A DNA stretch of 64,000 nucleotides from a virus (IMGVR_UViG_3300020045_008999:1-64000), one strand, 5' to 3'. Positions 1 through 44,927 are shown, counted from the stretch's first letter. Program-made: numbers and translations. Notes: generated by a model from the letters alone, not told the origin.

Positions 1-88
1 GTAAAAGAATAATAGTGAAAGGATAGGTGACAATTGACCAAAAGACCTTGGATGCCTGAGGAATTAAAGATACTTGAAAGCGGAATGA
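1..88. repeat. Left arm of a perfect 88-bp inverted repeat. It equals the reverse complement of 1483-1570 and may extend beyond the window start.
   Basis: Base-by-base comparison: the reverse complement of 1483-1570 equals 1-88 exactly; the match breaks at 89 vs 1482. Confidence 0.85.
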
Positions 89-107
89 TATTTGAATTCA
101 TTATTGT

Positions 108-458
108 ATGGATTGTTTTAAAATGACCCGCCTTATAATCCTCTTATCCCTCGCCGCCCTCGCTTGCGGTACTCCCGTCCTCATTGCGCCCGCCGATAGT
201 ACCAAAATTGATACAAAGCCAATGACGGCAATTACCCCTCATGTGGCGGATGAATTACGTCAAGCCGTTGCTTGTGTCCCTTACATGGTTAACGTCCGCA
301 CAGATGCGGGAACCGAACACGGCGTTATTGACCAACTGGCAGACCAAACGCCTGTGATAATAACGGGCGAAAAGTTAGACCGTTTCGGGTATGTGTGGGA
401 TGCAGTAAGTTATGGCGATAAAAGCGGGTATGTTTACAGTAAGTACATTTGCGAGTGA
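108..458 (+). CDS. Secreted protein with a bacterial SH3 (SH3b)-like domain
   Basis: N-terminal signal peptide (LIILLSLAALACG). The C-terminal segment VNVRTDAGTEHGVIDQLADQTPVIITGEK..GYVWDAVSYGDKSGYVYSKYI fits the SH3_3 pattern. Lies in a segment whose GC is well above the window average. Confidence 0.55.
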   Translation: MDCFKMTRLIILLSLAALACGTPVLIAPADSTKIDTKPMTAITPHVADELRQAVACVPYMVNVRTDAGTEHGVIDQLADQTPVIITGEKLDRFGYVWDAVSYGDKSGYVYSKYICE

Positions 459-512
459 TGCAATCAGGTATAATGGCAATGTCGACTAAAAACTATATAG
501 GAGTAATAAAAA

Positions 513-740
513 ATGAAACTGAATTTCCAGAACTGGTTCGCTGATTCCCCTCTCGCCTCGTTCCTTCGCACCTTTGCCGCCGTTGTGCTATCAAGTGCGG
601 TTGCGGACTTTGTGCGCGTGGGGCAATTTGAATTCACCAACTGGCAAGCCTGGGCAATCGCCGCGCTTGTCTCAGCCCTGCCCGCGTTATTGCGCTGGTT
701 GAATCCTCAGGACGTATTAAGCACGGCGTCGAAGGGATAA
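513..740 (+). CDS. Putative holin (phage r1t-like small membrane protein)
   Basis: 75 aa with two hydrophobic helices. LRTFAAVVLSSAVADFV ... AWAIAALVSALPALLRWL resembles the r1t holin family. GC-elevated. Confidence 0.45.
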   Translation: MKLNFQNWFADSPLASFLRTFAAVVLSSAVADFVRVGQFEFTNWQAWAIAALVSALPALLRWLNPQDVLSTASKG

Positions 741-976
741 GGGTATAATAGCATAAGCCCTGACCGTCCTCAATGTAGCCTGTATCGAATCAAGATATAC
801 AGGAAGTGGCGGCAGGGCTTTACTATTGGGCGGCAATAAAAACCCATAACGAAATGGAAAAATTATGTATGTAATCCCCGCGTGGTTTATATCTGGATTT
901 AGCTTTATTATTTTTATTATTTGCATGTATAACTTCTTTGTCATTAAATCGCGCAAAGCTGGCGGGTATGGAGTTG

Positions 977-1537
977 TTATGTTGTATTTCCCAGCCCTAC
1001 AAAAATATTATCAAACATGCCAAAACTTCTAAACACCTGGCGGGCTTCTGTCATCTCGTCCGATAACCCACCGCCTTTGCCTAACATCCCTATTTTTTCC
1101 AGCTTCTCAATAGCCGCATCCTTTATCTTTGCGGGTATCATTTCTATCAATTCTTTTATAGTTTCAAAGTTGGCTTCCGTATCGTCTTCTATCCATTCCG
1201 CTCCCCACTTGCTTAGACTGTCGTAGTGCAATAAATCCCCGTTTAGGTGTAATGTCTTTATTCCCCAGCTATCCGCCAAGTCGAGCACCCTGTTTATAAA
1301 TTCGGCATTGTGAAACGGGGCTTCTATATCCGACATTACCACCGCGTCACCCTCTGATTTTAAGGGCCTGTCAAACTTCGGCATTGTCGAAACGGGTACG
1401 GGGATTAATTCCTTGTCCCTGTATAACTTTGATTCAACCGATGAAACACTTCTTTGTAATTTCTTTGCTATTTCCTTGCTTGTCATTCCGCTTTCAAGTA
1501 TCTTTAATTCCTCAGGCATCCAAGGTCTTTTGGTCAA
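977..1537 (-). CDS. HTH-domain protein with an N-terminal WxPEExxxL / sigma-70 region-4-like helix-turn-helix and an uncharacterised C-terminal half
   Basis: ORF starts at TTG within the right inverted-repeat arm. KRPWMPEELKILESGMTSKEIAKKLQRSVSSVESKL is HTH-like. The downstream region (DIEAPFHN...GDLLHYD) is weakly metallophosphoesterase-like. Confidence 0.45.
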   Translation of the reverse strand: MTKRPWMPEELKILESGMTSKEIAKKLQRSVSSVESKLYRDKELIPVPVSTMPKFDRPLKSEGDAVVMSDIEAPFHNAEFINRVLDLADSWGIKTLHLNGDLLHYDSLSKWGAEWIEDDTEANFETIKELIEMIPAKIKDAAIEKLEKIGMLGKGGGLSDEMTEARQVFRSFGMFDNIFVGLGNTT

Positions 1538-1570
1538 TTGTCACCTATCCTTTCACTATTATTCTTTTAC
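1483..1570. repeat. Right arm of the 88-bp inverted repeat. It contains the 5' end (TTG/ATG start and first ~18 codons) of the minus-strand gene 977-1537.
   Basis: Reverse complement is identical to 1-88. The left copy also starts a short 30-codon ORF with the same first 18 codons. Confidence 0.85.
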
Positions 1571-1831
1571 AACGATTTCATGCCGCCACGTATAATTTTT
1601 TATAATAGGCGGTTCACCCATTTGGATAATCAGATCAATTTCAAGCTGCGCCCCTGATACCATCGCCTTTAAATCATCGTACTTCTTTTCAAGGGCGGTA
1701 TATCAATCATCATATTCATCCACTTCAAGCTCATACTCTTCATCGGGGTCATCGTCATCGTCATTTAGTGGATTCGGTGGGGGGTCTTCATCAGGGGGTG
1801 GGGCATCAAGCGATTGGTAATAAAAAATCAT
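1559..1831 (-). pseudogene. 91-codon acidic/Pro-rich ORF interrupted by a single in-frame TGA (codon 43, bases 1703-1705)
   Basis: Manual translation: MIFYYQSLDAPPPDEDPPPNPLNDDDDDPDEEYELEVDEYDD*YTALEKKYDDLKAMVSGAQLEIDLIIQMGEPPIIKNYTWRHEIVVKE. Absent from the ORF track because of the stop. Its 3' end runs 12 bp into the right inverted-repeat arm. Confidence 0.3.
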
Positions 1832-1873: not shown

Positions 1874-2476
1874 ATGAAATATTTATCTTGGTTACTTCCT
1901 TTGGGAATCGCTGCAATCATAGTAATTGCATTTTATGGTCTAATCGTAGGATTTAATAATTCCGCTGTAATGTTACAAGAAACCGCAAAAGGATCTTGGG
2001 GAAATGTAGAATCATCCTATCAACGTCGTAATGATTTAATTGGAAATTTGGTGAAAACGGTACAAGGTGCTGCTAATTTCGAAAAAGGTACGTTAACCGC
2101 CGTTATTGAGGCAAGAGCAAAAGCCACATCAACTACAATTGATATTTCTAAAGCCACACCCGCTCAAATAGAAGCGTATCGTAACAATCAAAGTGCCGTA
2201 TCATCATCATTGTCTAGATTATTAGTTAGTGTAGAGCGTTATCCGGAATTGAAAGCCAATGAGAATTTTCTTCGATTACAAACTGAGTTAGAGGGAACTG
2301 AAAACAGAATTAAGTTTGCCCGTGACAATTACAATATTGCGGTTAAACCATATAATATACACATTAAAACCTTTCCTAATTCGTTCATCAATGGGTTTTT
2401 TGGATTTGTAGAATTGCCATATTATAAATCAGATAAAGGGGCTGAAAATGCTCCAGTTGTTGACTTTAAATTTTAA
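1874..2476 (+). CDS. lemA: LemA family membrane protein
   Basis: N-terminal TM helix followed by the conserved LemA core (SWGNVESSYQRRNDLIGNLVKTVQGAANFEKGTL...VIEARAKAT). Confidence 0.8.
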   Translation: MKYLSWLLPLGIAAIIVIAFYGLIVGFNNSAVMLQETAKGSWGNVESSYQRRNDLIGNLVKTVQGAANFEKGTLTAVIEARAKATSTTIDISKATPAQIEAYRNNQSAVSSSLSRLLVSVERYPELKANENFLRLQTELEGTENRIKFARDNYNIAVKPYNIHIKTFPNSFINGFFGFVELPYYKSDKGAENAPVVDFKF

Positions 2477-2485
2477 ATTTTAAAA

Positions 2486-3724
2486 ATGAAAAATATCGTA
2501 ACTGAATTTAGATGGCGCGGTCTATTACAAAACCTATCAAATGGGACCGAAGAACAATTAACAAAGGAATCGACAAGCGTGTACATTGGATTTGATCCAA
2601 CATCGGATTCACTTCATGTTGGAAGTTTAGTACCAATCATAATGTTGAAACATTTAGAAAATTTCAATCACAAACCAATTGTTTTAATTGGTGGGGCCAC
2701 TGGAATGATTGGTGACCCAAGTGGGAAATCCGAAGAACGCAACCAACTATCATCAGACGAGCTTGATAAAAATTATGAGGGAATTCGTAAAACCTTACGA
2801 CATTTTTTAACAAACGCAACGTTTGTAAATAATTTCGACTGGATGTCAAAATTCTCGTTTTTAGATTTCATTAGTCAAATTGGAAAAATGATTACTGTTA
2901 ACTACATGATGGGTAAAGAATCGGTGAAAACAAGATTAGATAAAGGCGGAATGTCCTTTACTGAATTCACATACCAATTGCTACAAGGATATGATTTCAT
3001 GCACTTGTATGAAAATTACAATTGCAAGGTGCAGATGGGTGGATCTGATCAATATGGCAACATGACTACTGGATTAGAGCTTATTCGTAAAAAAGGAGGT
3101 CACGGGTTCGCACTAACATGTCCATTATTGGTTAAATCTGATGGGCAAAAATTCGGAAAATCAGAATCGGGAAATATCTGGTTAGACAAATCCAAGACTT
3201 CGGTATATGAATTTTACCAATTTTGGTTAAACCAAAGTGATCAAGATAGTGAACATCTTATTAAAACACTCACTTTCATGGATCAAGAATCAATACTTGC
3301 TCTTATTGCCGAGCATAAAATTGATGAATCAAAAAGGTTGCTTCAAAAACGATTGGCTTCGGAATTAACTATATTTGTGCATAGTGAAGAAGACCTACAA
3401 GATGTTGTCAACGTTTCAAATGTTATTTTCAATCGTGGTATTTTCGATGATAATACCAATATGCAGATGCTTACAGAAGTAGTTAACGATGCCAAAGAAG
3501 TTGAATTATCATCCGGGGTTACCGTATTGGATTTTTTAACTATGTCAGATTTTCTAACGTCTAATAATGAACGACGTCGGGCATTAAATGAGGGATCGGT
3601 GTTGATTAATAAGATCAAGGTTAATATAGACACGATGATCACAAAATCACACTTCATTAAAAATCACTTACTGATTCAACGCGGTAAAAAAATGTCAAAA
3701 GTGATAGTTCTCACTAATGCGTAA
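2486..3724 (+). CDS. tyrS: Tyrosyl-tRNA synthetase (class I aaRS)
   Basis: YIGFDPTSDSLHVGSLVPI (HIGH-type motif region), KFGKSESGNIWLD (KMSKS motif, as in bacterial TyrRS), and a C-terminal S4-like domain. 412 aa. Confidence 0.9.
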   Translation: MKNIVTEFRWRGLLQNLSNGTEEQLTKESTSVYIGFDPTSDSLHVGSLVPIIMLKHLENFNHKPIVLIGGATGMIGDPSGKSEERNQLSSDELDKNYEGIRKTLRHFLTNATFVNNFDWMSKFSFLDFISQIGKMITVNYMMGKESVKTRLDKGGMSFTEFTYQLLQGYDFMHLYENYNCKVQMGGSDQYGNMTTGLELIRKKGGHGFALTCPLLVKSDGQKFGKSESGNIWLDKSKTSVYEFYQFWLNQSDQDSEHLIKTLTFMDQESILALIAEHKIDESKRLLQKRLASELTIFVHSEEDLQDVVNVSNVIFNRGIFDDNTNMQMLTEVVNDAKEVELSSGVTVLDFLTMSDFLTSNNERRRALNEGSVLINKIKVNIDTMITKSHFIKNHLLIQRGKKMSKVIVLTNA

Positions 3725-7580: not shown

Positions 7581-8183
7581 ATGAGTACTAAAAATAATAC
7601 ACCCACTTCAATATTTGAATACCAAGACAAATGTCCATCATGTGGTAGTTTTTGCAACATTGAACAAGATTTAGATGACAATGACTTTTGTAATGATTGT
7701 AGACCTATGGAAATCAATATTATTGTGGCAGCTTCTGAAAATTTAACCATAGGTAAAGACAATGATCTGCCTTGGAAAATACCTAGTGATCTAAAAAAAT
7801 TCAAACAAATAACCACCGGGTCGATTGTAATAATGGGCAGAAAGTGTTATGAAAGTATTGGGCGGCCATTACCAGGTAGACAAAATATTGTAATTACTAG
7901 GAATACTGATCTTACTATTGAGGGTTGTGAAGTTGTCAATAGCATCAATCAGGCATTATCACTGTGTAAAAATGATTCACGGGAAATATTCATAATTGGT
8001 GGTGCTGAAATTTACAAACAAACGTTTAGTTTTGCAACTAAATTATACCTCACCGAGATAAAAGGAAATGTAGATGGTGATGTCAAATTAGAAGGAATGA
8101 ATTTAGAGGAATGGTCGTTGGTTTATGAAAGTGAATTATTTGAAGAAAATGGTACACAATTTAGATTCTTGGAATACATATAA
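7581..8183 (+). CDS. folA: Dihydrofolate reductase with an N-terminal zinc-ribbon extension
   Basis: INIIVAASENLTIGKDNDLPWKIPSDLKKFKQITTGSIVIMGRKCYESIGRPLPGRQNIVITRN aligns with the canonical DHFR core. Preceded by CPSCGSFC...CNDC. Confidence 0.9.
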   Translation: MSTKNNTPTSIFEYQDKCPSCGSFCNIEQDLDDNDFCNDCRPMEINIIVAASENLTIGKDNDLPWKIPSDLKKFKQITTGSIVIMGRKCYESIGRPLPGRQNIVITRNTDLTIEGCEVVNSINQALSLCKNDSREIFIIGGAEIYKQTFSFATKLYLTEIKGNVDGDVKLEGMNLEEWSLVYESELFEENGTQFRFLEYI

Positions 8184-10281: not shown

Positions 10282-10755
10282 ATGACTTTAGATGATATTT
10301 ATAAATTCATGGAAAAGGAATGTGATAATTTCAAATACCGGATCGATTACGATATAAGACAAGGATATGTTGTGAATTCCAGCGAGAATTACACCTGGAC
10401 ATATCCGCTTTATTTGAATCACAAAGACATATCCATGTTTCCATTTAAATTTGGAACAATACACACGTCTTTTATCGCATCTAGCACCTCACTAGCTTCA
10501 TTAATAAATTCACCAGATTACGTCCGGGACCATCTATTATTGGATGGCAATTTATTACAATCACTAAAAGGAATTAGCAAACATGTGGGGGTCAGACTGT
10601 CAATCAAACACAACCCATTATTAATCAATTGTGAAAATTTTACAATTTTGAATAACTTCATTAGAGAAAATCCATTTTGTACAATTTTGATGGATGACGA
10701 TTTTGCAAAAGCGTTTACTAGATTTAACACCATTGCGGATATTATTAGTTTGTAA
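10282..10755 (+). CDS. LRR-like repeat family protein, subfamily B (C-terminal DDDFxKAF(T/N)R motif)
   Basis: C-terminal ILMDDDFAKAFTRFNTIADII matches other B members. N-xL(K/T)SL-G repeat units. Confidence 0.55.
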   Translation: MTLDDIYKFMEKECDNFKYRIDYDIRQGYVVNSSENYTWTYPLYLNHKDISMFPFKFGTIHTSFIASSTSLASLINSPDYVRDHLLLDGNLLQSLKGISKHVGVRLSIKHNPLLINCENFTILNNFIRENPFCTILMDDDFAKAFTRFNTIADIISL

Positions 10756-11197
10756 TAATATCTGTGATTGTTACATATCGATTATACGCATTCAAGAATC
10801 CTTGATCTGCAAATATATTACCACCTACGTAGGTGAACATTAAAATTTTAAAATTTTCTTCATTTATAAGCAGCTGATTATACTCAATATGTAAATTACC
10901 ACCAATGAATTTTGGCATTCCCTCGATAGACGTTAACATATTATAATCCGCCCAAAAATTACCACATACACTATTGGGTGAATTAATTAAATTAGTTAGC
11001 ATGTTTTTACGCACAGATGCATTTTCATGTACCGTATTAATGTTAAAATTTGGCAAAGACGTCAAATTTCTATTATATGGAATTTGTAAATTTTGGTATA
11101 TATCAATGCTCATATCGGGATTAATTGAATATTCAACTACATTGTGATTCTTACACATTTTCTCAATCATCTCGATTGTATTATTAGAGTCCGTCAT
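10745..11197 (-). CDS. LRR-like repeat family protein, subfamily B
   Basis: N-terminal IEKMCKNHNVVEYSINPDMSIDI and C-terminal GFLNAYNRYVTITDII motifs. Tail-to-tail with 10282-10755. Confidence 0.55.
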   Translation of the reverse strand: MTDSNNTIEMIEKMCKNHNVVEYSINPDMSIDIYQNLQIPYNRNLTSLPNFNINTVHENASVRKNMLTNLINSPNSVCGNFWADYNMLTSIEGMPKFIGGNLHIEYNQLLINEENFKILMFTYVGGNIFADQGFLNAYNRYVTITDIITN

Positions 11198-12796: not shown

Positions 12797-13408
12797 TTAT
12801 TTTAATATGTTTCGAATTTCTTTGTATCTATTCCATATTGGCATGTATTTTTCGTCAATATGTAATTGTCCGTTAGAAACGTCATATAACATTGCATAAT
12901 CGGCCGCTTTAAATGTATAACATTCTAACATTTTCATAAATATAAGATCTGCTTTTTCTGGAAAATATGCTAATGTCTCCAAAGGTAATAAACTCAAACT
13001 TGCAAATGTTCTTATTGTTTTAGGACATCCTTTTAAATTACTGAGCTTATTTTGGGTGACACTAAATGACTCGTTAACATGCACAGGGCATCCTTCAAGC
13101 GAAGTTATTTTATTACAATGTATATGTAAATGACCATTGCCATAATTTTCAAATCCGATGGTATTTTTCAAATAATTATTTCCGCAATTGAAATCACCAC
13201 CTACGGTCTCTGGGAACCCATACGAATCTTCGATACTATTATATGCACAAGAGAAGTCGCCACTAATATGTTTGAATTGAATAGGTAGTCTTCGCAGTGA
13301 TTGGTTTGATAAATTCACGCTCCCCATTACCGAAACTTTATGATTTGCATCAATTTCGTAATCAATAATTTCAAACATATCACATATTTTTTTAATTTCC
13401 GAAATCAT
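12797..13408 (-). CDS. LRR-like repeat family protein (divergent B-type member)
   Basis: N-terminal KKICDMFEIIDYEIDANHKVSVMGSVNLSNQSLRRLP and repeats GDFNCGNNYLKNTIG / NKITSLEGCP. Confidence 0.5.
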   Translation of the reverse strand: MISEIKKICDMFEIIDYEIDANHKVSVMGSVNLSNQSLRRLPIQFKHISGDFSCAYNSIEDSYGFPETVGGDFNCGNNYLKNTIGFENYGNGHLHIHCNKITSLEGCPVHVNESFSVTQNKLSNLKGCPKTIRTFASLSLLPLETLAYFPEKADLIFMKMLECYTFKAADYAMLYDVSNGQLHIDEKYMPIWNRYKEIRNILK

Positions 13409-19992: not shown

Positions 19993-20766
19993 TTATTGCT
20001 TAGAAAAGTAATTATATGCATCAAATAACTTGGTATCATATTTATTTGCCTTATATCCGCTACCGTTATAGCCCTCAGCAAACTTAGCCCAATTCTTAGT
20101 AACCAAATATCTATCCAGGCGATTTGTTTTAACAAATGATATAAATGCCTTCAAATGATTGTATTCGGATTCTTTCATAGCTGCCACAAATTCTTCTACG
20201 GAATTATACCCACATGCTTTATAGTTATTTCCCATTATTTGGAAACGGCCATAACTAGCAGACTTTAATGCAGCACTAGTATTTATTTTACACGCCCTAT
20301 TCATTTTGCCCCATTGAATGCTTGATGTACCGTAAAAACCGGTTTTCCACTTTTGATAGAGAATATCAGCGTTTCCAAATAAATGTTTGTGTGGATCATA
20401 ACCCTTTGCTACCAATTCACGCCAGAATACATGCGGCTCAAATAATATTTTAACATCACCATTTGCCAGAAATCCATTGCCAGATGCCTCTATTTTATCA
20501 ACCGCTTTTACCGAAGCGACATCACAGCCAATTAAATCTGCTGCTTCCTGGTATTGTGCCTCGGTAATTCCGTTCTTTTGTACCACAGACATGCCTAACA
20601 TGCCCAACATCACATCATCAACGATACCGGTTTGTGGTAATTTATTTAATTTTTGAAATTCCTTAACTTTGATCTCAGTATTTTTGCCAAAATCTCCATC
20701 AATCCCCGCCCCTATTTTTTCTTGTAGTAACCTAACTTGTTCCCCACCATCACCTTTTTTTAACAT
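19993..20766 (-). CDS. Endolysin: PG_binding_1 domain + N-acetylmuramidase (DUF3380-type) domain
   Basis: N-terminal GEQVRLLQEKIG...DGDFGKNTEIKVKEFQ. C-terminal VDKIEASGNGFL...ILFEPHVF...SYGRFQIMGNNYKACGY...FAEGYNGSGYKANKYDTKL matches the phage muramidase family. Confidence 0.85.
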   Translation of the reverse strand: MLKKGDGGEQVRLLQEKIGAGIDGDFGKNTEIKVKEFQKLNKLPQTGIVDDVMLGMLGMSVVQKNGITEAQYQEAADLIGCDVASVKAVDKIEASGNGFLANGDVKILFEPHVFWRELVAKGYDPHKHLFGNADILYQKWKTGFYGTSSIQWGKMNRACKINTSAALKSASYGRFQIMGNNYKACGYNSVEEFVAAMKESEYNHLKAFISFVKTNRLDRYLVTKNWAKFAEGYNGSGYKANKYDTKLFDAYNYFSKQ

Positions 20767-20813: not shown

Positions 20814-20852
20814 TGTAAAAAAAACCACCTTAGAAAGATCTAAGGTGGTTGG
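20814..20852. terminator. Hairpin ccaccttagaaagatctaaggtgg with flanking A/T tracts
   Basis: Read from sequence. Lies between the tRNA cluster and the endolysin start. Confidence 0.45.
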
Positions 20853-20977: not shown

Positions 20978-21059
20978 TGGGGAGGGCTGGATTCGAACCA
21001 ACGAAGGCAATGCCGCCAGATTTACAGTCTGGTCCTTTTGACCGCTTGGGTATCTCCCC
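20978..21059 (-). tRNA. tRNA-Tyr (anticodon GTA), long variable arm
   Basis: Reverse complement GGGGAGATACCCAAGCGGTCAAAAGGACCAGACTGTAAATCTGGCGGCATTGCCTTCGTTGGTTCGAATCCAGCCCTCCCCA folds as a cloverleaf closely parallel to bacterial tRNA-Tyr. Confidence 0.8.
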
Positions 21060-21151
21060 TACCGGATATTTATAAAATAGAAGATGCAAATAATACAAAT
21101 TATACATTTTTAAATATTCTTAATTAACCGTTTAAGGTCAATTTAATTTGT

Positions 21152-21223
21152 GGTCCCGGAGAATTTTGAAATCCCGGCCTGAAAATTATGAGTTTCCTGC
21201 TCTACCTCTGAGCTACGAGACCA
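21152..21223 (-). tRNA. tRNA-Met/Ile2 (anticodon CAT), non-canonical T-arm
   Basis: Reverse complement GGTCTCGTAGCTCAGAGGTAGAGCAGGAAACTCATAATTTTCAGGCCGGGATTTCAAAATTCTCCGGGACCA. Acceptor, D and anticodon arms are good; the T-stem has a T53-T61 mismatch. Confidence 0.55.
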
Positions 21224-25813: not shown

Positions 25814-26200
25814 TCAAATCAAATTGATTAGTTCGGTAAACCCAGTTGGGATGTCAAATTCGATAATATTGCACATATCTAAAATAGATGTATCACAATC
25901 TTTACCGATGGCCAAATTGGTATTCATAAATACATGCTTCCCAAATCCATATAAACCAATTGATGCTTCACAATTTGATTCACCCGAGGAATGTTTGGTG
26001 AGCATAATATTTGCAAAGGAACCACGTTCGCGTTTTGCGTTTTTCAAAATACTAACCGCTTCTGGTGTGATATCAATCTCATCCACCGAAATAACAACCC
26101 CGAGTTGGTTTTCGGATTTGGGGTTATTTATAAATACCCCATTTTCAATATCAGTTTCAGCTCCGATTGCCCCTTTGTAAGCAAATATAATAGTTCTCAT
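25814..26200 (-). CDS. Hypothetical protein
   Basis: 128-aa ORF. Confidence 0.4.
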   Translation of the reverse strand: MRTIIFAYKGAIGAETDIENGVFINNPKSENQLGVVISVDEIDITPEAVSILKNAKRERGSFANIMLTKHSSGESNCEASIGLYGFGKHVFMNTNLAIGKDCDTSILDMCNIIEFDIPTGFTELINLI

Positions 26201-26988
26201 TAGAAATTTATTTTCAAGGTTCGTTCGAATTTTCCAACAACTTTACAGATGATGGAATTTCTTTGAGTAGATGAAAATCCAACCCCACTCAATTGTTTCT
26301 CACTAGAATCTACTTTAAGTTTTCCACCTAAAATTTCAAATACCCGACGATTTTTATCAAGATCTTCTGAAAGAAATTCATTGAAAAAACCTCGTGGGGT
26401 TTCGTCATTATGAGTACCCTCTAACATGAAAAACAAATGTTTGTTTCCAATATTACTTTCCCAGTGATTTGGTGAATTCATGATCATGGATACTTTTTGG
26501 AATTTATTAGTACTCAATCCCCATTTTTCCTTAGATGACATACTAGTATTGGCATTTTTGTTGAATTTTACACCATCACTTTTTGAGTATGTGAAACTAA
26601 CCACACTAATCTTTTCTTTATTTTTTATGGATGTCGATTGGTTAAATGATCCAACCTCACCACGGCATTCAATTTCAATATCAAATCCGAAATCTTTAGC
26701 TTCACGTTTGTTAAAGTTATTAACCTTAACTTCATAAGTACCCTCTAACATTTTATTGTATGTGAATCGTGATGCTAAAAAAGCTCTCGGTATATTCGAG
26801 GAATTGAAAGAGGATGTCCCAGTGAATAGCAAAAGCTTATCAAAAGTAGAAGAAGTTACTATTGATAAATTCATCACCGATATTTTACCAACTGTGAAAA
26901 GCTTAGAAGTATTGGTAGAGAATAAACATCTAAATAATTTGGTAAGCTTAATTGCACCGATAAATAAAGAAGCCCCATCATTATTCAA
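26200..26988 (-). CDS. Hypothetical protein
   Basis: 262-aa ORF. Confidence 0.45.
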   Translation of the reverse strand: MNNDGASLFIGAIKLTKLFRCLFSTNTSKLFTVGKISVMNLSIVTSSTFDKLLLFTGTSSFNSSNIPRAFLASRFTYNKMLEGTYEVKVNNFNKREAKDFGFDIEIECRGEVGSFNQSTSIKNKEKISVVSFTYSKSDGVKFNKNANTSMSSKEKWGLSTNKFQKVSMIMNSPNHWESNIGNKHLFFMLEGTHNDETPRGFFNEFLSEDLDKNRRVFEILGGKLKVDSSEKQLSGVGFSSTQRNSIICKVVGKFERTLKINF

Positions 26989-26998
26989 ATGGAAAAAT

Positions 26999-27736
26999 TC
27001 ATATTCCTGGAGTTATGTAAATGCCCTGACCGATTGATGAATTTCTAATTTTAGATTGAGATTGATGAACCGTTGCCGATCTTAGCCAAGCATAATTTTC
27101 TTTATTCGCACTAAGATCAAATTCTTTTTTTGATTTTAGGAAATCCGTTAACAATCCCTTGAATTCATCACCTTTATATAATGAATTTTGGGCAATCAAT
27201 TCTAAAACTGATTCAACAGAATCAATCGTAATTTCTTCCAGTGATCTTTTGAATACTGAATAATTGGCATTGTGTTCGGATAATTTTGTATCCACACTCA
27301 CCCCTCTAGTTGTAAGTATAGCATTTGAAGATTTTATAAAAAAATGATCCCATGTGATTGATGAGGTAGGAGTTATCTCTACATTTGAATCAGTTCCCAA
27401 TGATGTAGTATCGGTAACTAGGCGGTTTTTAATTGCAGAATTTACTACAAGTGAATTTAAATCAAATGCAGTTTTCGTATATAGTTCACTACTTGGGACA
27501 AAATTCCAAATAGATACTAATTTATCATCAACTATTGTAACAATACTGGCATAGTATCTAATAAATTGACGACAACAATTACAATTATGATATTGTCTTT
27601 CATCCGGATCTTCGAAAGAATTTAAATAAGTTTCCCACAAAACTTCTTTATCCACATCAGCGGTAAACAATATTGCGGAATTTTTACTCATTTCATGAAA
27701 TGAATCTTGTATTTCTTTTTTAAATGTTTTGAACAT
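26999..27736 (-). CDS. Hypothetical protein
   Basis: 245-aa ORF. Confidence 0.45.
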   Translation of the reverse strand: MFKTFKKEIQDSFHEMSKNSAILFTADVDKEVLWETYLNSFEDPDERQYHNCNCCRQFIRYYASIVTIVDDKLVSIWNFVPSSELYTKTAFDLNSLVVNSAIKNRLVTDTTSLGTDSNVEITPTSSITWDHFFIKSSNAILTTRGVSVDTKLSEHNANYSVFKRSLEEITIDSVESVLELIAQNSLYKGDEFKGLLTDFLKSKKEFDLSANKENYAWLRSATVHQSQSKIRNSSIGQGIYITPGI

Positions 27737-28429: not shown

Positions 28430-28969
28430 TTATTTAATTGTGTTAATTATTTTAGAAAGTCGAGGTTCTGCTACACCGGTGGCGTATATCCATTCGAGGA
28501 ACTCACAATTACGTATCCCGTAGCTTCCGAGTTCCATTCCTTTGTATTCAATATCGAAACCATCTTCGGTATCTACGATTTCTACATTAGGAATGTAGTT
28601 TTTAAAAAATGTTAAACAAGTGTCCGTTATTTTAGTCAATTCTGCCCAATTGACAACATCTGTTTTTATTAATTCATTTTTCATAAAATATTTACTGTGA
28701 GTGAAATCGAAGCTTTCTAGTCTGTAACATGGTGTTATACATTGATATGAACCAAGTGGTAAGAATTCTTTCAAATATAAGTACAAAAAAGATTGTTCCC
28801 CAGAAGCAACCAGGCACTTGTCATTGTGTTTTAATTGAAATGATATAATCCCGGGTGGTTTTGTGATATTGTCAATGTATTCCGAAACGGTCCAAGGTGC
28901 CTCTATTCGTTTGAATCCAGCTTTTTCATAATATTCAATTGAATCGTGTAGTATTTTATAATTAATCAT
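28430..28969 (-). CDS. Hypothetical protein
   Basis: 179-aa ORF. Confidence 0.45.
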   Translation of the reverse strand: MINYKILHDSIEYYEKAGFKRIEAPWTVSEYIDNITKPPGIISFQLKHNDKCLVASGEQSFLYLYLKEFLPLGSYQCITPCYRLESFDFTHSKYFMKNELIKTDVVNWAELTKITDTCLTFFKNYIPNVEIVDTEDGFDIEYKGMELGSYGIRNCEFLEWIYATGVAEPRLSKIINTIK

Positions 28970-28979
28970 ATTACTCTTT

Positions 28980-29816
28980 TTAAACAGTTTCTGAGATAAT
29001 AGATGGGGTGGAACTTATTTGTTGTAAACATAGAACGTATAGGTGTTCAGATCCAAGTGCAGCAAGCCAATTATCAAAATAGTGTTCCAAAGTATTCGAT
29101 TTTGGATGAATTCCTTTGTGGTATAGCATGAAATCTTTTTTATTTTGTACTTTATCCGCAATGAGCATGTTGTTGACATCTTCAAGTGGTGATAGTCTAA
29201 TTTCTGATAAATTATGAATTTCTCTAGATGATAAATATTCATTGGCTACTGATCGGTATTCAACTGCTGTTATGATCACATTCGAATCAATTCCCTGGAA
29301 TTTATCAATATTCATAGTTAAGTCTGTATCAGATTGTAACATTGGGTGTAGACAATACGCTTTTTTAGCGGTCTCAGACGCATTAATATAGTTTAATATA
29401 TATAATCCTTCATCAATATGATTCATGAAAGCCACGCCGCTTCTGGATGCCTTGTCCCCTTGATAAAAATCACTGATCATGTCATATTCTATAAATGGCG
29501 AATTGTCCACAGAAATATAGTCAATGTTATGTTTGGTTAAATACTCTACAATACCACAATCCGGTGTAGTTAGAACGGTATGCTTTATTGTGTTGCGGTA
29601 AATACCTTTGTTGCGGAATTGGTCTAATATGTAAGTTGATTGGTACGTCTTACCGCCCTTTGTAAAAAAGGCAATTACACCATATTGAAATTCTAAAATT
29701 TCTAAAATTCTAAAATTATGTCTAAGTAATTGCTTTGCACGACTGTTTATATATTCGATCGCTTGTGCATTGGTGGTTGCGTTTAATTCGAACCTTTTCA
29801 TTTTTTCCATATTCAT
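28980..29816 (-). CDS. Hypothetical protein
   Basis: 278-aa ORF containing a 9-bp coding microsatellite. Confidence 0.45.
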   Translation of the reverse strand: MNMEKMKRFELNATTNAQAIEYINSRAKQLLRHNFRILEILEFQYGVIAFFTKGGKTYQSTYILDQFRNKGIYRNTIKHTVLTTPDCGIVEYLTKHNIDYISVDNSPFIEYDMISDFYQGDKASRSGVAFMNHIDEGLYILNYINASETAKKAYCLHPMLQSDTDLTMNIDKFQGIDSNVIITAVEYRSVANEYLSSREIHNLSEIRLSPLEDVNNMLIADKVQNKKDFMLYHKGIHPKSNTLEHYFDNWLAALGSEHLYVLCLQQISSTPSIISETV

Positions 29817-30307
29817 TATTTGTTTAGTATATTATCTATTTCTACCGATCTATTAAAAGCTTTCAAAAAATTATCATCAATGTGAAAAAAATCACAATTT
29901 GAATTAATTAGTGCGTTGATATTTTGAGAATTTATATCAATAAAATTGTTTTGAAAATCTGCGACACCACCAATATACATGGGCATGTCAACTATATTAG
30001 TAATATAATTAGCATCACATGTGAAGTCACCACTTACATAAATTGGTGCACCTACAAGTGAGGTTAAATGATTAAGAAAACAGTCAAAATATCCATCCAC
30101 TATTTTTGGCCCATTTTTTAAACTTGTCAATCCTTGTCCAATGCAAGTAAAATTCCCCTTAATATGATTGAATTTAATTGGAATATGTATGGTTTTCAAA
30201 TTAATAACAACATCCCCATCTACATCAATAGAATTATCTGGGTTAATTGTATAGTGATTGATTCCATATGCTCTACACAATACTTCTATTTTTTTGACAC
30301 TACTCAT
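29816..30307 (-). CDS. LRR-like repeat family protein, subfamily B
   Basis: N-terminal KKIEVLCRAYGINHYTINPDNSIDVDGDVVINLKTIHIPIKFNHIKGNFTC and C-terminal FHIDDNFLKAFNRSVEIDNIL. Confidence 0.55.
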   Translation of the reverse strand: MSSVKKIEVLCRAYGINHYTINPDNSIDVDGDVVINLKTIHIPIKFNHIKGNFTCIGQGLTSLKNGPKIVDGYFDCFLNHLTSLVGAPIYVSGDFTCDANYITNIVDMPMYIGGVADFQNNFIDINSQNINALINSNCDFFHIDDNFLKAFNRSVEIDNILNK

Positions 30308-33718: not shown

Positions 33719-34417
33719 TTATAACAAACCGTCTTTGATTTCTGTTATTAGATCTTTGAAATTTAATTCATTTAGCGAGTAATCAGCATTCCAAATTTCA
33801 AAGTGTCGTTGGTATTTTAAAATCACCGAATGGGTGTTCCCTTTATTTTCACCGAGATGATCATATTTGATTGCTTTTATTATTTTTGTAGGAAGTGGGT
33901 TGTTTGATATGTAAAAATCCCCACCTAAATCAATGTCAGTATCACCACAGAATAAGGAACTTAATTTATTATTTTGTAAATTAAAATCACCACCAATAGT
34001 ATGTGGTGCGCCTATTAAATTTTTCAGTCTATTCAACGATGTATTGAAGTATTTACCAACATGTTTTGGTCCACCAATGAGTGATACTAAATCACAGTTG
34101 TGTGAATCATAGTCACCATCGACATGTTTTGGTCCACCCTCTAATGATAATAATTTTTTTAATCCGAAGCATTTAAAGTCACCGGATACGTATTGTGGGG
34201 CCCCAGTGAGAGTAGTAAGACCACTCATTTGTGCCAAGAAATCACCGTTCACTTTATTGAATCTCAATGGTAATTCAGTCATATTTATTTGTCGAATTAA
34301 AAATACATTGCCATTAACATCAATCGATCCATCTAAATTTATTGTATAATTTTCAATTCCAAAATCATTACATATTCCATTGATAGTATCTAATTCTTTT
34401 ACGGTAAGTAATTTCAT
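33719..34417 (-). CDS. LRR-like repeat family protein, subfamily A (C-terminal ILKYQRHFEIWN motif)
   Basis: N-terminal TVKELDTINGICNDFGIENYTINLDGSIDVNGNV. Seven GxP-HVGG-F repeat units. C-terminal ILKYQRHFEIWNADYSLNELNFKDLITEIKDGLL. Confidence 0.6.
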   Translation of the reverse strand: MKLLTVKELDTINGICNDFGIENYTINLDGSIDVNGNVFLIRQINMTELPLRFNKVNGDFLAQMSGLTTLTGAPQYVSGDFKCFGLKKLLSLEGGPKHVDGDYDSHNCDLVSLIGGPKHVGKYFNTSLNRLKNLIGAPHTIGGDFNLQNNKLSSLFCGDTDIDLGGDFYISNNPLPTKIIKAIKYDHLGENKGNTHSVILKYQRHFEIWNADYSLNELNFKDLITEIKDGLL

Positions 34418-35107: not shown

Positions 35108-37435
35108 ATGCCAGCAATAAGAGATTCCTCATTTAAATTTAATACCGCAACCGCAACCACACTAGTATTGCCGGCGGTAAATGTACTTGTAAATGATTTG
35201 ATGATTGCTTTAATTTCTATAGATACCGGTACTTCGGCGGTTACCGCAACCGGATGGACGGAATTATTTAGAACGACATCTACGTCTCAACTCGTATGTA
35301 TGTATAAAATTAGTAATGGTACCGAAGAAGATATTACATTTACATATGCAGTAGAAACGGCGGTGGGTTGTTTAATATCCATTAAAGATGTTAATACAAC
35401 CAATCCGTTTGGTGCCACGCCGGTTTTTAATAGTGTCGCTTCTGCTACCACTGCTAAAATAACGATGCAACAAATCACCACTACTATTCCAAATTCGTTA
35501 ATTTTATATGTTAACGGCCGTTCCGCTGTAGGAATACCGTCATTTTTGGAGGGGGCGGTTAGTAGTTTGTTTGCGGGTGATGGTGGTGCTGAATCATTAG
35601 CTGTTGGTTGGGGCTTCCAAGCAAATGTGGGAACTACCCCAAATAATATAGTATCATCAGCATTGACCGCGGTAGCCGGAGTTCGTGCAGTAATTCAGAT
35701 AGCACCACCTAGTGGTGGTGCTACAATAATTCCAACGTATTGTACATCGGATAGTTCAATTTATGTGGATCCCATAAATGGCACTAGTGCATATAATGGT
35801 AATACCGCATTGGCAGCAACCGCCGATACTGGTTTTAGTACAACACTTGGTGCATTTGCAGCAGCGGATGCTACGGTAGCAGCAGTTGCGGATGTTGGGA
35901 TTAACTCATTCCACTCTGTTGGTAGATTGACTTCAATATCAGCCAGTAAGAATTTATCTGGTGCCGAATTAGTTCTATTAGATGCCAATCGACCAAATAT
36001 AACTGGTAAGAATATATTAGTGCATTTGGGGGCGAGTACCGAGGGGCAGTTGCAACGATTTTCTAGTGTGGCCTCGGGTAGAGGAATCTGGTTTGGTGTA
36101 AGAAGTGGGGCGGCAGCCAATTGGAAGATCTGGCAAGTGTTTGGTGTGGAAAATGGTAGTGAGCGTCATAAACCAGTGGTGATAAATGAAAGTGCGTTAA
36201 ATGTTAAATCATCGAATGGAACTTTGGCCACCACTCTTGCTAAGGCTTTTGGATTTTGGGTTTCCGGTACGGGGGTTTTGACCACTATTTTCGATTTTGC
36301 TTCATTGTGGGTATTAGATACTTGTGTTGTTGGAGGGGGGAATGTGGCATTTCCGATGGATGTATCTGGAATAACCAGTGCCGTTGCTAAGGGAAAGGAA
36401 CGTAAAAACATATTACAACAAGGTGCCAAACAAGCTTTAATACTTAGTCATGTACAGTTAGGAAATGGTGGAACTAATCCAATATATTTGAATTTGGATG
36501 GTACAGCCATTGAGTTTCCGAAGCAATATAATGAGAGTACTGCTGAGGTAAGTTATAATAGTGTGGATAATGTCTGTGGGTTAACGTATTATGCGGGTGC
36601 AAGTGATGTTATAAAACACGTCAATTCTGTAGTATCATCTTCATCAAGATATCAGTGGGGATTACATCCATCTAGTTCGGCATCGGCTTCTTATGATTTT
36701 TCTGGTCTTTCAGTGATTGGCGCGGGTACGGTAATGTTGGGAATTGCCATCATCATTTCTGATTTGACTATTAATAGTTACACTACTTTAGACATAACAA
36801 ATGCTGATTTAATAGGGTGTTCGATCTTGAATGTTCCAACTACGAATGACAGTATGACTTCTAACACATCTACTTCAATTACCGAGGGTATAATAAACGT
36901 AACCGGTGTTACAGCGGGTAACAGATGGTGTTCAGTTGCAAACCCATCTATTTTCACTAATTCTACGTTTATCGGATCTGGTAGCTCAGGTCATGCAATT
37001 CGTATTACAACCCCCGGTACATATACCTTAACTAAACTTACATTTACCTCATTTGGGGCAAGCGCGACTAACTTCTCAGCTATTTATAATGATAGTGGTG
37101 GTTTAGTCACGCTGAATGTTTCAGGAGGTAATTCACCTACAATTAGAAATGGGACCAGTGCATCTACTGTTGTGAATAATGTAATAACCCTAACTCTTAA
37201 TGGTTTGGTTACTGGTTCTGATATTGTTTTCTTGGTTGCTGGTACAACTACGCGTAGAGCAAATATTGATAGTAATGTGGGTTCTACATGGGCATATGTT
37301 TATGCGACTGTTGAAAATGTAGATATTTTAGTTTATAAGTCAGGTTATTTACCGTTTACTATCCGAAACTATGCATTATCAACATCAAGTACTTCATTGC
37401 CAATAGCCCAGGTTAGTGATCGTAACTATGCATAA
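35108..37435 (+). CDS. Large virion structural protein (putative tail fiber / receptor-binding)
   Basis: 775 aa, Ala/Thr/Gly/Ser/Asn-rich beta-type composition. First of three large co-directional ORFs with minimal spacing. Confidence 0.4.
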   Translation: MPAIRDSSFKFNTATATTLVLPAVNVLVNDLMIALISIDTGTSAVTATGWTELFRTTSTSQLVCMYKISNGTEEDITFTYAVETAVGCLISIKDVNTTNPFGATPVFNSVASATTAKITMQQITTTIPNSLILYVNGRSAVGIPSFLEGAVSSLFAGDGGAESLAVGWGFQANVGTTPNNIVSSALTAVAGVRAVIQIAPPSGGATIIPTYCTSDSSIYVDPINGTSAYNGNTALAATADTGFSTTLGAFAAADATVAAVADVGINSFHSVGRLTSISASKNLSGAELVLLDANRPNITGKNILVHLGASTEGQLQRFSSVASGRGIWFGVRSGAAANWKIWQVFGVENGSERHKPVVINESALNVKSSNGTLATTLAKAFGFWVSGTGVLTTIFDFASLWVLDTCVVGGGNVAFPMDVSGITSAVAKGKERKNILQQGAKQALILSHVQLGNGGTNPIYLNLDGTAIEFPKQYNESTAEVSYNSVDNVCGLTYYAGASDVIKHVNSVVSSSSRYQWGLHPSSSASASYDFSGLSVIGAGTVMLGIAIIISDLTINSYTTLDITNADLIGCSILNVPTTNDSMTSNTSTSITEGIINVTGVTAGNRWCSVANPSIFTNSTFIGSGSSGHAIRITTPGTYTLTKLTFTSFGASATNFSAIYNDSGGLVTLNVSGGNSPTIRNGTSASTVVNNVITLTLNGLVTGSDIVFLVAGTTTRRANIDSNVGSTWAYVYATVENVDILVYKSGYLPFTIRNYALSTSSTSLPIAQVSDRNYA

Positions 37436-37476
37436 AATAAAATTAATATATAATAAATTAAAATAAAACTAAATAA

Positions 37477-39120: not shown

Positions 39121-39137
39121 TTATAAAAATAAATAGC

Positions 39138-44905: not shown

Positions 44906-44927
44906 TCTAAAAAGGCATGGTTTATAT

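What the first reader, a model, noticed from the sequence alone, without database searches (positions are those of the whole stretch)
2486..3724. Phage-encoded tyrosyl-tRNA synthetase together with a cognate tRNA-Tyr(GTA)
A full-length class I TyrRS (HIGH region, KFGKS KMSKS motif, C-terminal S4-like domain) is encoded at 2.5-3.7 kb. A tRNA-Tyr with the bacterial-type long variable arm is encoded at 20978-21059, next to a tRNA-Met(CAT). Aminoacyl-tRNA synthetases are rare in phages (known mostly from giant viruses and a few jumbo phages). A matched synthetase/tRNA pair implies the virus supplements, or insulates itself from, host Tyr decoding, for example against tRNA-targeting defences or during host shutoff.
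Basis: partly seen in the sequence, partly recalled or inferred. Interest (0 to 1): 0.65.

Follow-up and report, generated by a model that had tools for sequence, protein, structure and literature searches.

The report
Huge-phage tyrosyl-tRNA synthetase plus tRNA-Tyr
A very large (about 600 kb) bacteriophage carries its own intact tyrosine-charging enzyme and a compatible tyrosine tRNA, but both are already well documented in jumbo and huge phages, and here they are unlinked parts of a broad translation toolkit rather than a dedicated pair.

Summary
ORF 2486-3724 (+) is a full-length bacterial-type TyrRS: TIGR00234 scores 360 bits and every catalytic motif is intact. A canonical bacterial tRNA-Tyr(GUA) lies at 20978-21059 (-), beside a tRNA-Met(CAT).

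The gene is not contamination. It sits in a 22-gene block collinear with a related contig, and its GC3 matches the window. Against its 79%-identical homolog it shows strong purifying selection (pN 0.13, pS 0.81). An identical protein maps to a 596,785-bp contig.

The window looks like a phage: it has a Syn5 gp53-like structural module, an endolysin, six tRNAs and mostly orphan ORFs. The enzyme belongs to a short-form TyrRS lineage found on 100-620 kb phage-like contigs. Its nearest cellular relatives are Flavobacteriaceae enzymes (54-58% identity).

The interpretation overreaches. TyrRS genes, alongside tRNA-Tyr genes, are already described in Rak2-like jumbo phages. PHROGs holds a TyrRS family, and huge phages carry up to 15 synthetases. 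Enzyme and tRNA here are 17 kb apart, on opposite strands, in separate units, with no unusual identity features.

Verdict: a new member of a known kind, of low to moderate interest.

The parts
2486..3724 (+). Bacterial-type (TyrS) tyrosyl-tRNA synthetase, 412 aa. It has a Rossmann catalytic domain (HVGS 44-47, KFGKS 222-226), an alpha-helical anticodon-binding domain and a C-terminal S4-like domain.
   Evidence: for the family matches. Invariant catalytic and Tyr-binding residues are shown. Purifying selection is shown. It matches PHROG 9270.
1874..2476 (+). LemA-family membrane protein gene. It ends 9 nt upstream of the TyrRS start. The adjacency is conserved in the closest relatives, so it is probably co-transcribed with TyrRS (inferred).
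   Evidence: Pfam LemA E 1.5e-50. LemA-TyrRS adjacency is seen in L001, L002 and L004. It is 89.5% identical to the L001 copy.
20978..21059 (-). tRNA-Tyr(GUA), bacterial class II type. It has G1-C72, A73, a 13-nt variable arm and one A7.C66 mismatch. CCA is not encoded.
   Evidence: ARAGORN, Rfam 47.7 bits, sequence read, alignment with other phage tRNA-Tyr genes.
21151..21222 (-). tRNA-Met(CAT) immediately upstream of tRNA-Tyr on the same strand. It is not initiator-like (G1-C72, A/U-rich anticodon stem). Whether it is an elongator tRNA-Met or a tRNA-Ile2 was not resolved.
20823..20850 (-). Terminator-like hairpin (12-bp stem followed by a T-run) between tRNA-Tyr and the downstream muramidase gene. 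It would close a small tRNA-Met/tRNA-Tyr transcription unit.
   Evidence: 1 found, against 0.4 expected in shuffles.
63661..63970 (-). tRNA cluster Trp(CCA)-Phe(GAA)-His(GTG)-Lys(TTT). The same four specificities form the arrays next to TyrRS in related huge-phage contigs.

Best explanation
The ORF is a functional, canonical bacterial-type TyrRS encoded by a huge phage of roughly 600 kb whose host is probably a member of the Bacteroidota. The gene was captured long ago from a Flavobacteriia-like bacterium. It has since been inherited within a lineage of very large phages, as a 'short-form' TyrRS of 410-425 aa carrying three lineage-specific deletions.

During infection it most likely activates tyrosine with ATP and charges any tRNA-Tyr with bacterial identity. 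That would include both the host's tRNA-Tyr and the phage's own copy at 20978-21059. This would keep Tyr-tRNA-Tyr supply high for an AT-rich, Tyr-rich phage proteome (4.5% Tyr, 71% TAT) while host gene expression declines.

The enzyme is one component of a dispersed translation-support toolkit that includes tRNA arrays and, in relatives, SmpB, YqeY and further aaRS-like genes. It is not half of a dedicated synthetase/tRNA module.

Shown: identity, integrity, selection, lineage, phage context and tRNA compatibility. Inferred: enzymatic activity, timing, and the benefit to the phage.
For: Full-length match to the tyrS equivalog and to solved bacterial TyrRSs.

All ATP- and Tyr-binding positions are invariant across 23 phage-type sequences: Y33, D37, H44/G46, G76-D77-P78, Y163, Q167, D170, G185-Q189 and K222-S226.

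Against the 79%-identical L001 homolog, pN is 0.128 and pS is 0.81, giving pN/pS 0.16 with synonymous sites saturated.

A block of 22 collinear genes, from LemA to Band_7, is shared with L001 and contains the TyrRS. TyrRS GC3 is 0.32 against a window mean of 0.27.

Identical proteins for two window genes 25 kb apart both map to a 596,785-bp JGI contig.

Phage character of the window: a Syn5 gp53-like structural protein with neighbours matching the adjacent genes in Syn5, S-TIP28, Panino and Rctr197k; an endolysin; 52 PHROG families among 98 ORFs against only 26 Pfam families; and six tRNAs.

Lineage: group A is monophyletic (bootstrap 75). The Flavobacteriaceae 430-436-aa enzymes form a separate clade (bootstrap 85). 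The short forms share three deletions. Relatives lie on 100-620 kb contigs, including IMG/VR viral contigs.

The tRNA-Tyr has G1-C72, A73, GUA and a long variable arm. These match the bacterial tyrosine identity rules reviewed in PMC9976931.

Against: No activity data exist and there is no cultured host.

The window contains no capsid, portal or terminase gene, so the phage assignment rests on a structural-protein homolog, an endolysin, PHROG content and relatives.

The C-terminal domain of the window's group is more diverged than in sister groups: 34% identity to Flavobacterium against 53% for group B. Its Pfam hit falls just below threshold, so tRNA binding could be altered.

The tree is a neighbour-joining tree of only the 120 best hits plus four added sequences: three jumbo-phage TyrRSs used as a long-branch outgroup, and one from an unverified human-faecal 'Bacteriophage sp.' record. 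The donor taxon and the number of capture events are therefore only approximate.

Only about 11% of the genome is visible, so whether Tyr is singled out among the genome's aaRS and tRNA genes is unknown.
Confidence: 0.68

Rival explanations
1. Counter-defence bypass. The phage tRNA-Tyr replenishes a tRNA-Tyr pool that a host defence nuclease destroys (of the Retron-Eco7 PtuAB type). The phage TyrRS guarantees charging of that replacement pool even if the host enzyme is limiting or shut off. Together they would form a host-independent Tyr-decoding channel.
For: T5-family phages evade Retron-Eco7, whose PtuAB effector depletes host tRNA-Tyr, by overexpressing their own tRNA-Tyr (PMC11555353). 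Phage tRNAs in general are proposed to evade anticodon nucleases (PMC10264068). The tRNA-Met/tRNA-Tyr pair is a small stand-alone unit with its own terminator-like hairpin. A tRNA-Tyr lies 8-10 kb from the TyrRS in 3 of 18 IMG/VR relatives. Gad2-type anti-defence genes lie near the TyrRS in relatives.
Against: The anticodon stem-loop is canonical and invariant among four phage tRNA-Tyr genes, so there is no escape mutation. In the T5 precedent no synthetase is needed. TyrRS and tRNA-Tyr are unlinked here, and in the closest sampled loci no tRNA-Tyr lies within 10 kb. No strong promoter was detected beyond chance. No tRNA-Tyr-targeting defence is known in Bacteroidota hosts (my knowledge).
Confidence: 0.15
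2. Assembly chimera or host contamination. The TyrRS would belong to a Flavobacteriia chromosome fragment joined to phage sequence.
For: The nearest named homologs are Flavobacteriaceae enzymes. A compositionally foreign block (GC 0.43-0.46, GC3 up to 0.65) lies directly upstream of LemA-TyrRS at 1-1830.
Against: Identity to any named bacterial TyrRS is only 54-58%. The gene's GC3 matches the phage. It is embedded in 22 collinear orphan-rich genes shared with an independent assembly, L001, and LemA-TyrRS recurs in L002 and L004. All nine group-A sequences share the same short architecture. No cellular housekeeping genes flank it.
Confidence: 0.03
3. The replicon is not a phage but a large plasmid or an extremely reduced cellular genome, in which case a TyrRS would be unremarkable.
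For: No capsid, portal or terminase gene lies in the 64 kb examined. The contig size of about 597 kb overlaps that of reduced symbiont genomes. The source contig could not be retrieved.
Against: The window has a homolog of phage virion proteins with conserved neighbours and an endolysin. Most ORFs are orphans and no ribosomal or core metabolic genes are present. Paralog families are expanded. tRNA arrays with degenerate T-loops are present. The related TyrRS-bearing contigs L013 and L014 are classed as viral in IMG/VR.
Confidence: 0.06
4. Moonlighting or pseudo-synthetase. The protein keeps the fold but serves another role, for example as an RNA chaperone or splicing cofactor like the fungal mitochondrial CYT-18 TyrRS, or in dinucleotide-polyphosphate signalling.
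For: The C-terminal tRNA-binding domain is the most diverged part, at 33-34% identity to Flavobacteriaceae. It falls marginally below the Pfam cutoff. TyrRSs have evolved splicing roles elsewhere (PMC4275181, listed).
Against: Every catalytic and tyrosine-binding residue is invariant. The C-terminal domain is also the fastest-evolving part between two bacterial enzymes (63% against 83% for the catalytic domain). None of the insertions typical of splicing TyrRSs is present; the protein is shorter, not longer, than its bacterial relatives.
Confidence: 0.05

Closest known systems
TyrRS of Rak2-like jumbo phages (Cronobacter phage GAP32, Xanthomonas phage XbC2, Serratia phage BF, Pectobacterium phage CBB, Yersinia phage fHe-Yen9, Erwinia pEa_SNUABM phages); PHROG family phrog_9270
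   Same: These are phage-encoded, full-length bacterial-type TyrRSs with the same HIGS-type and KFGKS motifs. Their genomes also encode tRNA-Tyr among 30 or more tRNAs.
   Different: They are only 37-39% identical to the window's enzyme and sit on a separate, long branch. That indicates an independent capture in phages of Proteobacteria. The window's enzyme is Bacteroidota-derived and belongs to a phage roughly 600 kb in size.
aaRS and tRNA repertoires of huge phages (Al-Shayeb et al. 2020, PMC7162821)
   Same: Genomes over 200 kb, many predicted to infect Bacteroidetes, with up to 15 aaRS and 67 tRNAs. [quoted passage not shown]
   Different: This particular LemA-TyrRS lineage was not traced to any genome of that study. 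Clade membership (for example Mahaphage) was not tested. The window uses the standard genetic code; Lak phages, as I recall, recode a stop codon.
Cellular TyrRS of Flavobacteriaceae (Tenacibaculum, Flavobacterium; solved relative 6n0w)
   Same: Same domain order and motifs, including HIGS. These are the best named sequence matches, at 54-58% identity, and 6n0w scores E 4.6e-120.
   Different: The phage form is about 20 aa shorter through three shared deletions (alignment columns ~118-124, ~168-170 and ~225-231) and has a more diverged C-terminal domain.
T5-family phage tRNA-Tyr used against Retron-Eco7 (PMC11555353)
   Same: A phage-encoded tRNA-Tyr(GUA) able to function in translation.
   Different: The T5 mechanism relies on a very strong promoter and needs no phage synthetase. 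Here no defence context or strong promoter could be shown.

Membership tests
Bacterial-type tyrosyl-tRNA synthetase (class Ic, TyrS; TIGR00234) | Whole-protein score above the curated equivalog cutoff, with end-to-end coverage | tested here: met
   360.2 bits against a cutoff of 113.8; residues 2-403 match profile positions 4-399 of 406
Bacterial-type tyrosyl-tRNA synthetase (class Ic, TyrS; TIGR00234) | Class I signature motifs HIGH and KMSKS in a Rossmann fold | tested here: met
   H44-V-G-S47, a natural HIGS-type variant shared with Flavobacteriaceae and GAP32, and K222-F-G-K-S226. Pfam tRNA-synt_1b E 1.3e-72
Bacterial-type tyrosyl-tRNA synthetase (class Ic, TyrS; TIGR00234) | Tyrosine-binding residues (S. 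aureus Y36, D40, D80, Y170, Q174, D177, Q196; my knowledge of the 1jii active site) | tested here: met
   The aligned residues Y33, D37, D77, Y163, Q167, D170 and Q189 are identical to 1jii and invariant in 23 phage-type sequences
Bacterial-type tyrosyl-tRNA synthetase (class Ic, TyrS; TIGR00234) | C-terminal S4-like tRNA-binding domain | tested here: met
   SYY_C-terminal covers 332-403 at 26.5 bits, 0.5 bit under the cutoff. The alignment with 6n0w and 1jii runs to residues 403-405, with the S/N-x-x-E-x-R-R-A-L...IN segment conserved. The domain is present but diverged.
Bacterial-type tyrosyl-tRNA synthetase (class Ic, TyrS; TIGR00234) | Tyr-AMP formation and tRNA-Tyr aminoacylation | not testable with these tools
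   Requires biochemistry or genetic complementation
Bacterial tRNA-Tyr (class II tRNA) | Anticodon GUA, discriminator A73, G1-C72 first pair and long variable arm (identity rules in PMC9976931) | tested here: met
   The sequence read shows G1...C72, A73, C32-U-G-U-A-A-A38 and a 13-nt variable region (CGGCAUUGCCUUC). ARAGORN and Rfam both call it.
Dedicated or co-evolved synthetase/tRNA module (operonic or orthogonal pair) | Physical linkage or co-transcription of the enzyme and its tRNA | tested here: not met
   The genes are 17.2 kb apart on opposite strands. The tRNA unit has its own terminator-like hairpin. No tRNA-Tyr lies within 10 kb of the TyrRS in L001, L003-L005, L007, L013 or L014.
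Dedicated or co-evolved synthetase/tRNA module (operonic or orthogonal pair) | Identity elements that depart from the host type, which would isolate the pair from host components | tested here: not met
   The identity set is canonical for bacteria and the enzyme motifs are canonical
Huge phages (>200 kb; Al-Shayeb et al. 2020) | Genome larger than 200 kb | tested here: inconclusive
   Proteins identical to two window genes are each recorded on a 596,785-bp JGI contig, but the contig itself could not be fetched
Huge phages (>200 kb; Al-Shayeb et al. 2020) | Virion hallmark genes (capsid, portal, terminase) and placement in a named clade | tested here: inconclusive
   Within the window only a Syn5 gp53-like structural protein module and an endolysin were found. 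No capsid, portal or terminase family appeared among the matches listed (the bulk scans show only the first 25 families each). Clade phylogeny was not run.
Anti-defence phage tRNA (T5 tRNA-Tyr versus Retron-Eco7) | Very strong dedicated promoter, and rescue from a tRNA-Tyr-depleting effector | not testable with these tools
   The consensus promoter scan found 6 sites against 3.7 +/- 2.0 expected. The host and its defences are unknown.

The most novel reading that the evidence does not exclude
The TyrRS and the phage tRNA-Tyr together form a host-independent tyrosine-decoding channel. Very large Bacteroidota phages would retain it to survive host responses that deplete or inactivate tRNA-Tyr or TyrRS. 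That would make the synthetase itself a counter-defence gene, a role so far shown only for phage tRNAs.
Probability: 0.12. Interest if true: 0.55.

Novelty: new member of a known kind. Interest (0 to 1): 0.25.

Why it matters
The finding adds a well-supported example to an existing picture rather than a new principle. Very large phages keep captured aminoacyl-tRNA synthetases under purifying selection over long periods. This one defines a distinct short-form TyrRS lineage, conserved across contigs of 100-620 kb.

The lineage offers natural, compact TyrRS variants for biochemistry. It is also a usable marker and host-phylum indicator (Bacteroidota) for this phage group.

The finding would matter more if the synthetase proved to be required for escape from tRNA-directed immunity.

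Tried and rejected
- Exact look-up of the TyrRS and of the identical P0001 found no record, so the source contig could not be read.
- Megablast of 20 kb of the window against the phage records gave no match.
- A single-protein scan of IMG/VR found nothing. A profile scan was needed to find relatives.
- The JGI metagenome scan returned relatives of at most 61% identity and not the source contig.
- An exact 35-nt core of the tRNA-Tyr is absent from 185,579 species genomes. No host or donor clue came from the tRNA, and the second genome scan was not used.
- Alternative genetic codes were rejected. Code 11 already gives 78% coverage by ORFs of at least 100 aa, and recoding TGA or TAG adds little.
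- Promoter and terminator scans around LemA-TyrRS found no more than chance.
- MFE folding of the tRNA-Tyr did not reproduce the D-arm and gave z = -1.5. This is uninformative for tRNAs, so I relied on ARAGORN and Rfam.
- The 'virion structural protein' PHROG hits turned out to be the two LemA-like ORFs, so they were not used as evidence for a phage.
- BLAST of the short HisRS-related fragments from the Al-Shayeb supplements against the window ORFs found nothing.
- The GC-rich island's 186-aa ORF has no phage homolog by tblastn.
- Comparison of tRNA sequences between the window and group-B arrays showed mostly 55-75% identity. This is too diverged to prove the arrays are orthologous.

Full report
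OBSERVATION

The ORF at 2486..3724 (+) is real: 412 aa with an ATG start. It matches Pfam tRNA-synt_1b over residues 27-315 (E 1.3e-72). It also matches the TyrRS C-terminal domain over 332-403 at 26.5 bits, half a bit under the cutoff. The NCBIfam tyrS equivalog TIGR00234 scores 360 bits (cutoff 113.8) over residues 2-403. The best solved relatives are bacterial TyrRSs: 6n0w at E 4.6e-120, S. aureus 1jii at 1e-103, and 2ts1 at 1.5e-98.

The 'HIGH' motif reads HVGS. The same His-to-Ser variant (HIGS) occurs in Flavobacteriaceae and in the phage GAP32 enzyme. KMSKS reads KFGKS. The residues that bind tyrosine and ATP in 1jii (Y36, D40, D80, Y170, Q174, D177, Q196) align with identical residues here: Y33, D37, D77, Y163, Q167, D170, Q189. 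They are invariant in 23 phage-type sequences.

ARAGORN and Rfam both find tRNA-Tyr(GTA) at 20978-21059 (-) and tRNA-Met(CAT) at 21151-21222 (-).

IS IT A PHAGE, AND DOES THE GENE BELONG TO IT?

The window is 31% GC and fits the standard genetic code. Of 98 ORFs, only 26 Pfam families are hit, against 52 PHROG families.

The 547-aa ORF at 37477-39120 is homologous over 82-90% of its length to annotated structural proteins. These include Syn5 gp53, S-TIP28 and a Caudoviricetes MAG, along with unannotated ORFs of Maribacter phage Panino and virus Rctr197k. Its two neighbours match the adjacent genes in those same phages. A muramidase-type endolysin lies at 19993-20766. No capsid, portal or terminase gene lies in this 64 kb, so the phage call is strong but not absolute.

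Proteins identical to two window genes 25 kb apart are each recorded on a 596,785-bp JGI contig. I could not fetch that contig. Al-Shayeb et al. mention an earlier 596-kb circular phage genome. Whether it is the same genome is only a lead.

The TyrRS is not a chimeric insert. It lies inside a run of 22 collinear genes, LemA through Band_7, shared with an independent assembly (L001, TyrRS 79-80% identical). The LemA-TyrRS adjacency recurs in L002 and L004. Its GC3 is 0.32 against the window mean of 0.27. Against L001, pN is 0.128 and pS is 0.81, so the gene is under strong purifying selection.

LINEAGE

The closest homologs fall into two syntenic groups.
- Group A has LemA-TyrRS and enzymes of 410-413 aa. 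It includes the window, L001, L002 and L004.
- Group B has sigma70...thioredoxin-SmpB...YqeY-TyrRS and enzymes of 416-420 aa. It includes L003, L005, L006, L007 and L008, with carrying contigs reported up to 623,658 bp (L003) and 402,389 bp (P0021's cluster). Its neighbouring genes are mostly unannotated. L013 and L014, both IMG/VR viral contigs, have TyrRS genes 57-58% identical to the window's and a similar downstream tRNA array, so I group them here as well.

One group-B locus carries a gene with a CHU_C domain. As I recall, that domain is a type IX secretion sorting signal typical of Bacteroidota, so it is a further hint about the host.

In a neighbour-joining tree of the 120 best hits plus four added sequences (three jumbo-phage TyrRSs and one from an unverified faecal 'Bacteriophage sp.' record), group A is monophyletic (bootstrap 75). 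The named Flavobacteriaceae enzymes (430-436 aa) form their own clade (bootstrap 85). All short forms share three deletions relative to them. The jumbo-phage enzymes of the GAP32/BF type are only 37-39% identical and lie on a separate long branch.

I infer an old capture from a Flavobacteriia-like donor followed by retention within very large phages. The sampling and the method limit how firmly the number of captures can be stated.

THE tRNA AND THE 'PAIR'

The tRNA-Tyr reads GGGGAGAUACCCAAGCGGUCAAAAGGACCAGACUGUAAAUCUGGCGGCAUUGCCUUCGUUGGUUCGAAUCCAGCCCUCCCCA. It has G1-C72, A73, the GUA anticodon in a canonical loop, a 13-nt variable arm, one A7.C66 mismatch and no encoded CCA. This is the identity set of bacterial tyrosine systems: A73 and U35 are critical, G1-C72 is bacterial-specific, and the tRNA is class II (PMC9976931). 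The tRNA is therefore a plausible substrate of the enzyme, but so would be any bacterial host tRNA-Tyr.

Nothing marks the two genes as a dedicated pair.
- They are 17 kb apart on opposite strands.
- The tRNA-Met/tRNA-Tyr unit has its own terminator-like hairpin at 20823-20850.
- No tRNA-Tyr lies within 10 kb of the TyrRS in the nearer relatives. There the neighbouring arrays are Lys/Trp/Phe/His, the same four specificities as the window's distal cluster.
- A tRNA-Tyr 8-10 kb downstream of the TyrRS occurs in 3 of 18 more distant IMG/VR loci.
- tRNA-Tyr genes are common in phages generally: 165 phage records match this one at 60-82% identity.

MECHANISM

The most likely role is generic. The enzyme would be an active TyrRS that sustains Tyr-tRNA-Tyr supply for an AT-rich proteome with 4.5% Tyr and 615 TAT against 249 TAC codons. 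It would act as part of a dispersed translation-support set. This is the interpretation already offered for huge phages (PMC7162821).

The counter-defence idea has a real precedent for the tRNA. T5-family phages overexpress tRNA-Tyr to bypass Retron-Eco7 PtuAB (PMC11555353). That mechanism needs no synthetase, and the tRNA here shows no escape changes. I give it about 0.15.

NOVELTY

TyrRS in phages is annotated in Rak2-like jumbo phages, whose genomes also carry tRNA-Tyr. PHROGs has a TyrRS family. aaRS genes are a described feature of huge phages. This is a new member, and arguably a newly delineated sub-lineage, of a known kind.

SIDE FINDING

ORF 28430-28969 (-) encodes 179 aa and matches a PHROG labelled 'histidyl tRNA synthetase' end to end. 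It is far too short to be a HisRS. The modelled structure (pLDDT 89.5) is a bare class II aaRS catalytic core, with TM-scores of 0.65-0.73 to PylRS and SerRS catalytic domains. The motif 2 F-R83-x-E sequence and the motif 3 arginine R170 are invariant. The family has at least 1,478 members and is 67-85% identical across the best 120 hits listed, which is tighter conservation than the TyrRS shows. Its substrate is unknown. It may deserve more attention than the TyrRS.

Noticed in passing
window 28430-28969 (-): A 179-aa stand-alone class II aaRS catalytic core. It matches phrog_4806 ('histidyl tRNA synthetase', E 6.8e-39), but Pfam shows only a weak tRNA-synt_2 hit (E 0.0023). The AlphaFold model (pLDDT 89.5) matches PylRS and SerRS catalytic domains (TM 0.65-0.73), with no anticodon-binding domain. 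The motif 2 FRxE sequence and the motif 3 arginine are invariant. The family has at least 1,478 homologs, and the best 120 are 67-85% identical. Substrate and function are unknown.
   Followed up: partly
window 1-1830: A compositional island (GC 0.43-0.46, ORF GC3 0.37-0.65, against a window GC3 of 0.27) directly upstream of LemA-TyrRS. It holds an SH3_3 lipoprotein-like ORF, a small membrane ORF and a 186-aa ORF with a Sigma70_r4/GerE helix-turn-helix. In relatives this slot holds a TPM_phosphatase-type gene (L004) or a 526-aa ORF (L001). It looks like a recent foreign insertion and is cut by the window edge.
   Followed up: partly
window 26200-27736 (-): Two adjacent ORFs, 245 aa and 262 aa (224 aa from its first ATG), match the N-terminal part (positions 4-245) and the C-terminal part (487-673) of one PHROG, phrog_1735. 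About 240 middle positions are missing. This is a split or abridged gene.
   Followed up: no
window, e.g. 10282-10755, 10745-11197, 12797-13408, 29816-30307, 33719-34417, 44540-45548, 47531-48139, 59078-61664: Expanded paralog families. At least 11 window ORFs hit the same 148-aa gene of L001 (13168-13614), and four others hit L001 14577-15026.
   Followed up: no
window 63661-63970 (-); L003, L005, L007, L013, L014: A Trp-Phe-His-Lys tRNA cluster whose four specificities recur as arrays 1-9 kb downstream of TyrRS in group-B huge-phage loci. Sequences are mostly 55-75% identical, with one tRNA-Lys 91% identical to L007. The window's tRNA-Lys, tRNA-His and tRNA-Met have non-canonical T-loops.
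   Followed up: partly
L018 15410-15491; L025 19413-19494: In two IMG/VR phage contigs that carry a TyrRS 8-10 kb upstream, the tRNA-Tyr has U1-A72 instead of the bacterial G1-C72 identity pair. This could mean enzyme-tRNA co-adaptation in those phages.
   Followed up: no
window 35108-40544 (+): A three-gene module (775, 547 and 468 aa) with locally raised GC (0.38-0.39). It is homologous to the Syn5 gp52/53/55 region, S-TIP28, Maribacter phage Panino and virus Rctr197k. Syn5 gene 53 is annotated as a structural protein.
   Followed up: partly
window 1874-2476 (+) and 53234-54055 (-): Two LemA-like ORFs. The PHROG they match (phrog_1383) is labelled 'virion structural protein', which is probably a misleading label for a LemA membrane-protein family. 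The LemA-TyrRS adjacency is conserved in group A without an obvious functional reason.
   Followed up: no
L005 13754-14488; L003, L005, L007 upstream of TyrRS: Group-B loci carry further translation-related genes around the TyrRS: SmpB, a YqeY-domain protein, and in L005 a second, truncated (244-aa) tRNA-synt_1b ORF just after the tRNA array. Gad2-type anti-defence genes and a sigma-70 gene lie close by.
   Followed up: no
window 7581-8183 (+): The dihydrofolate reductase has a ~44-aa N-terminal extension rich in paired cysteines (CPSCGSFC...FCNDC), resembling a zinc ribbon. The DHFR domain spans residues 45-199.
   Followed up: no
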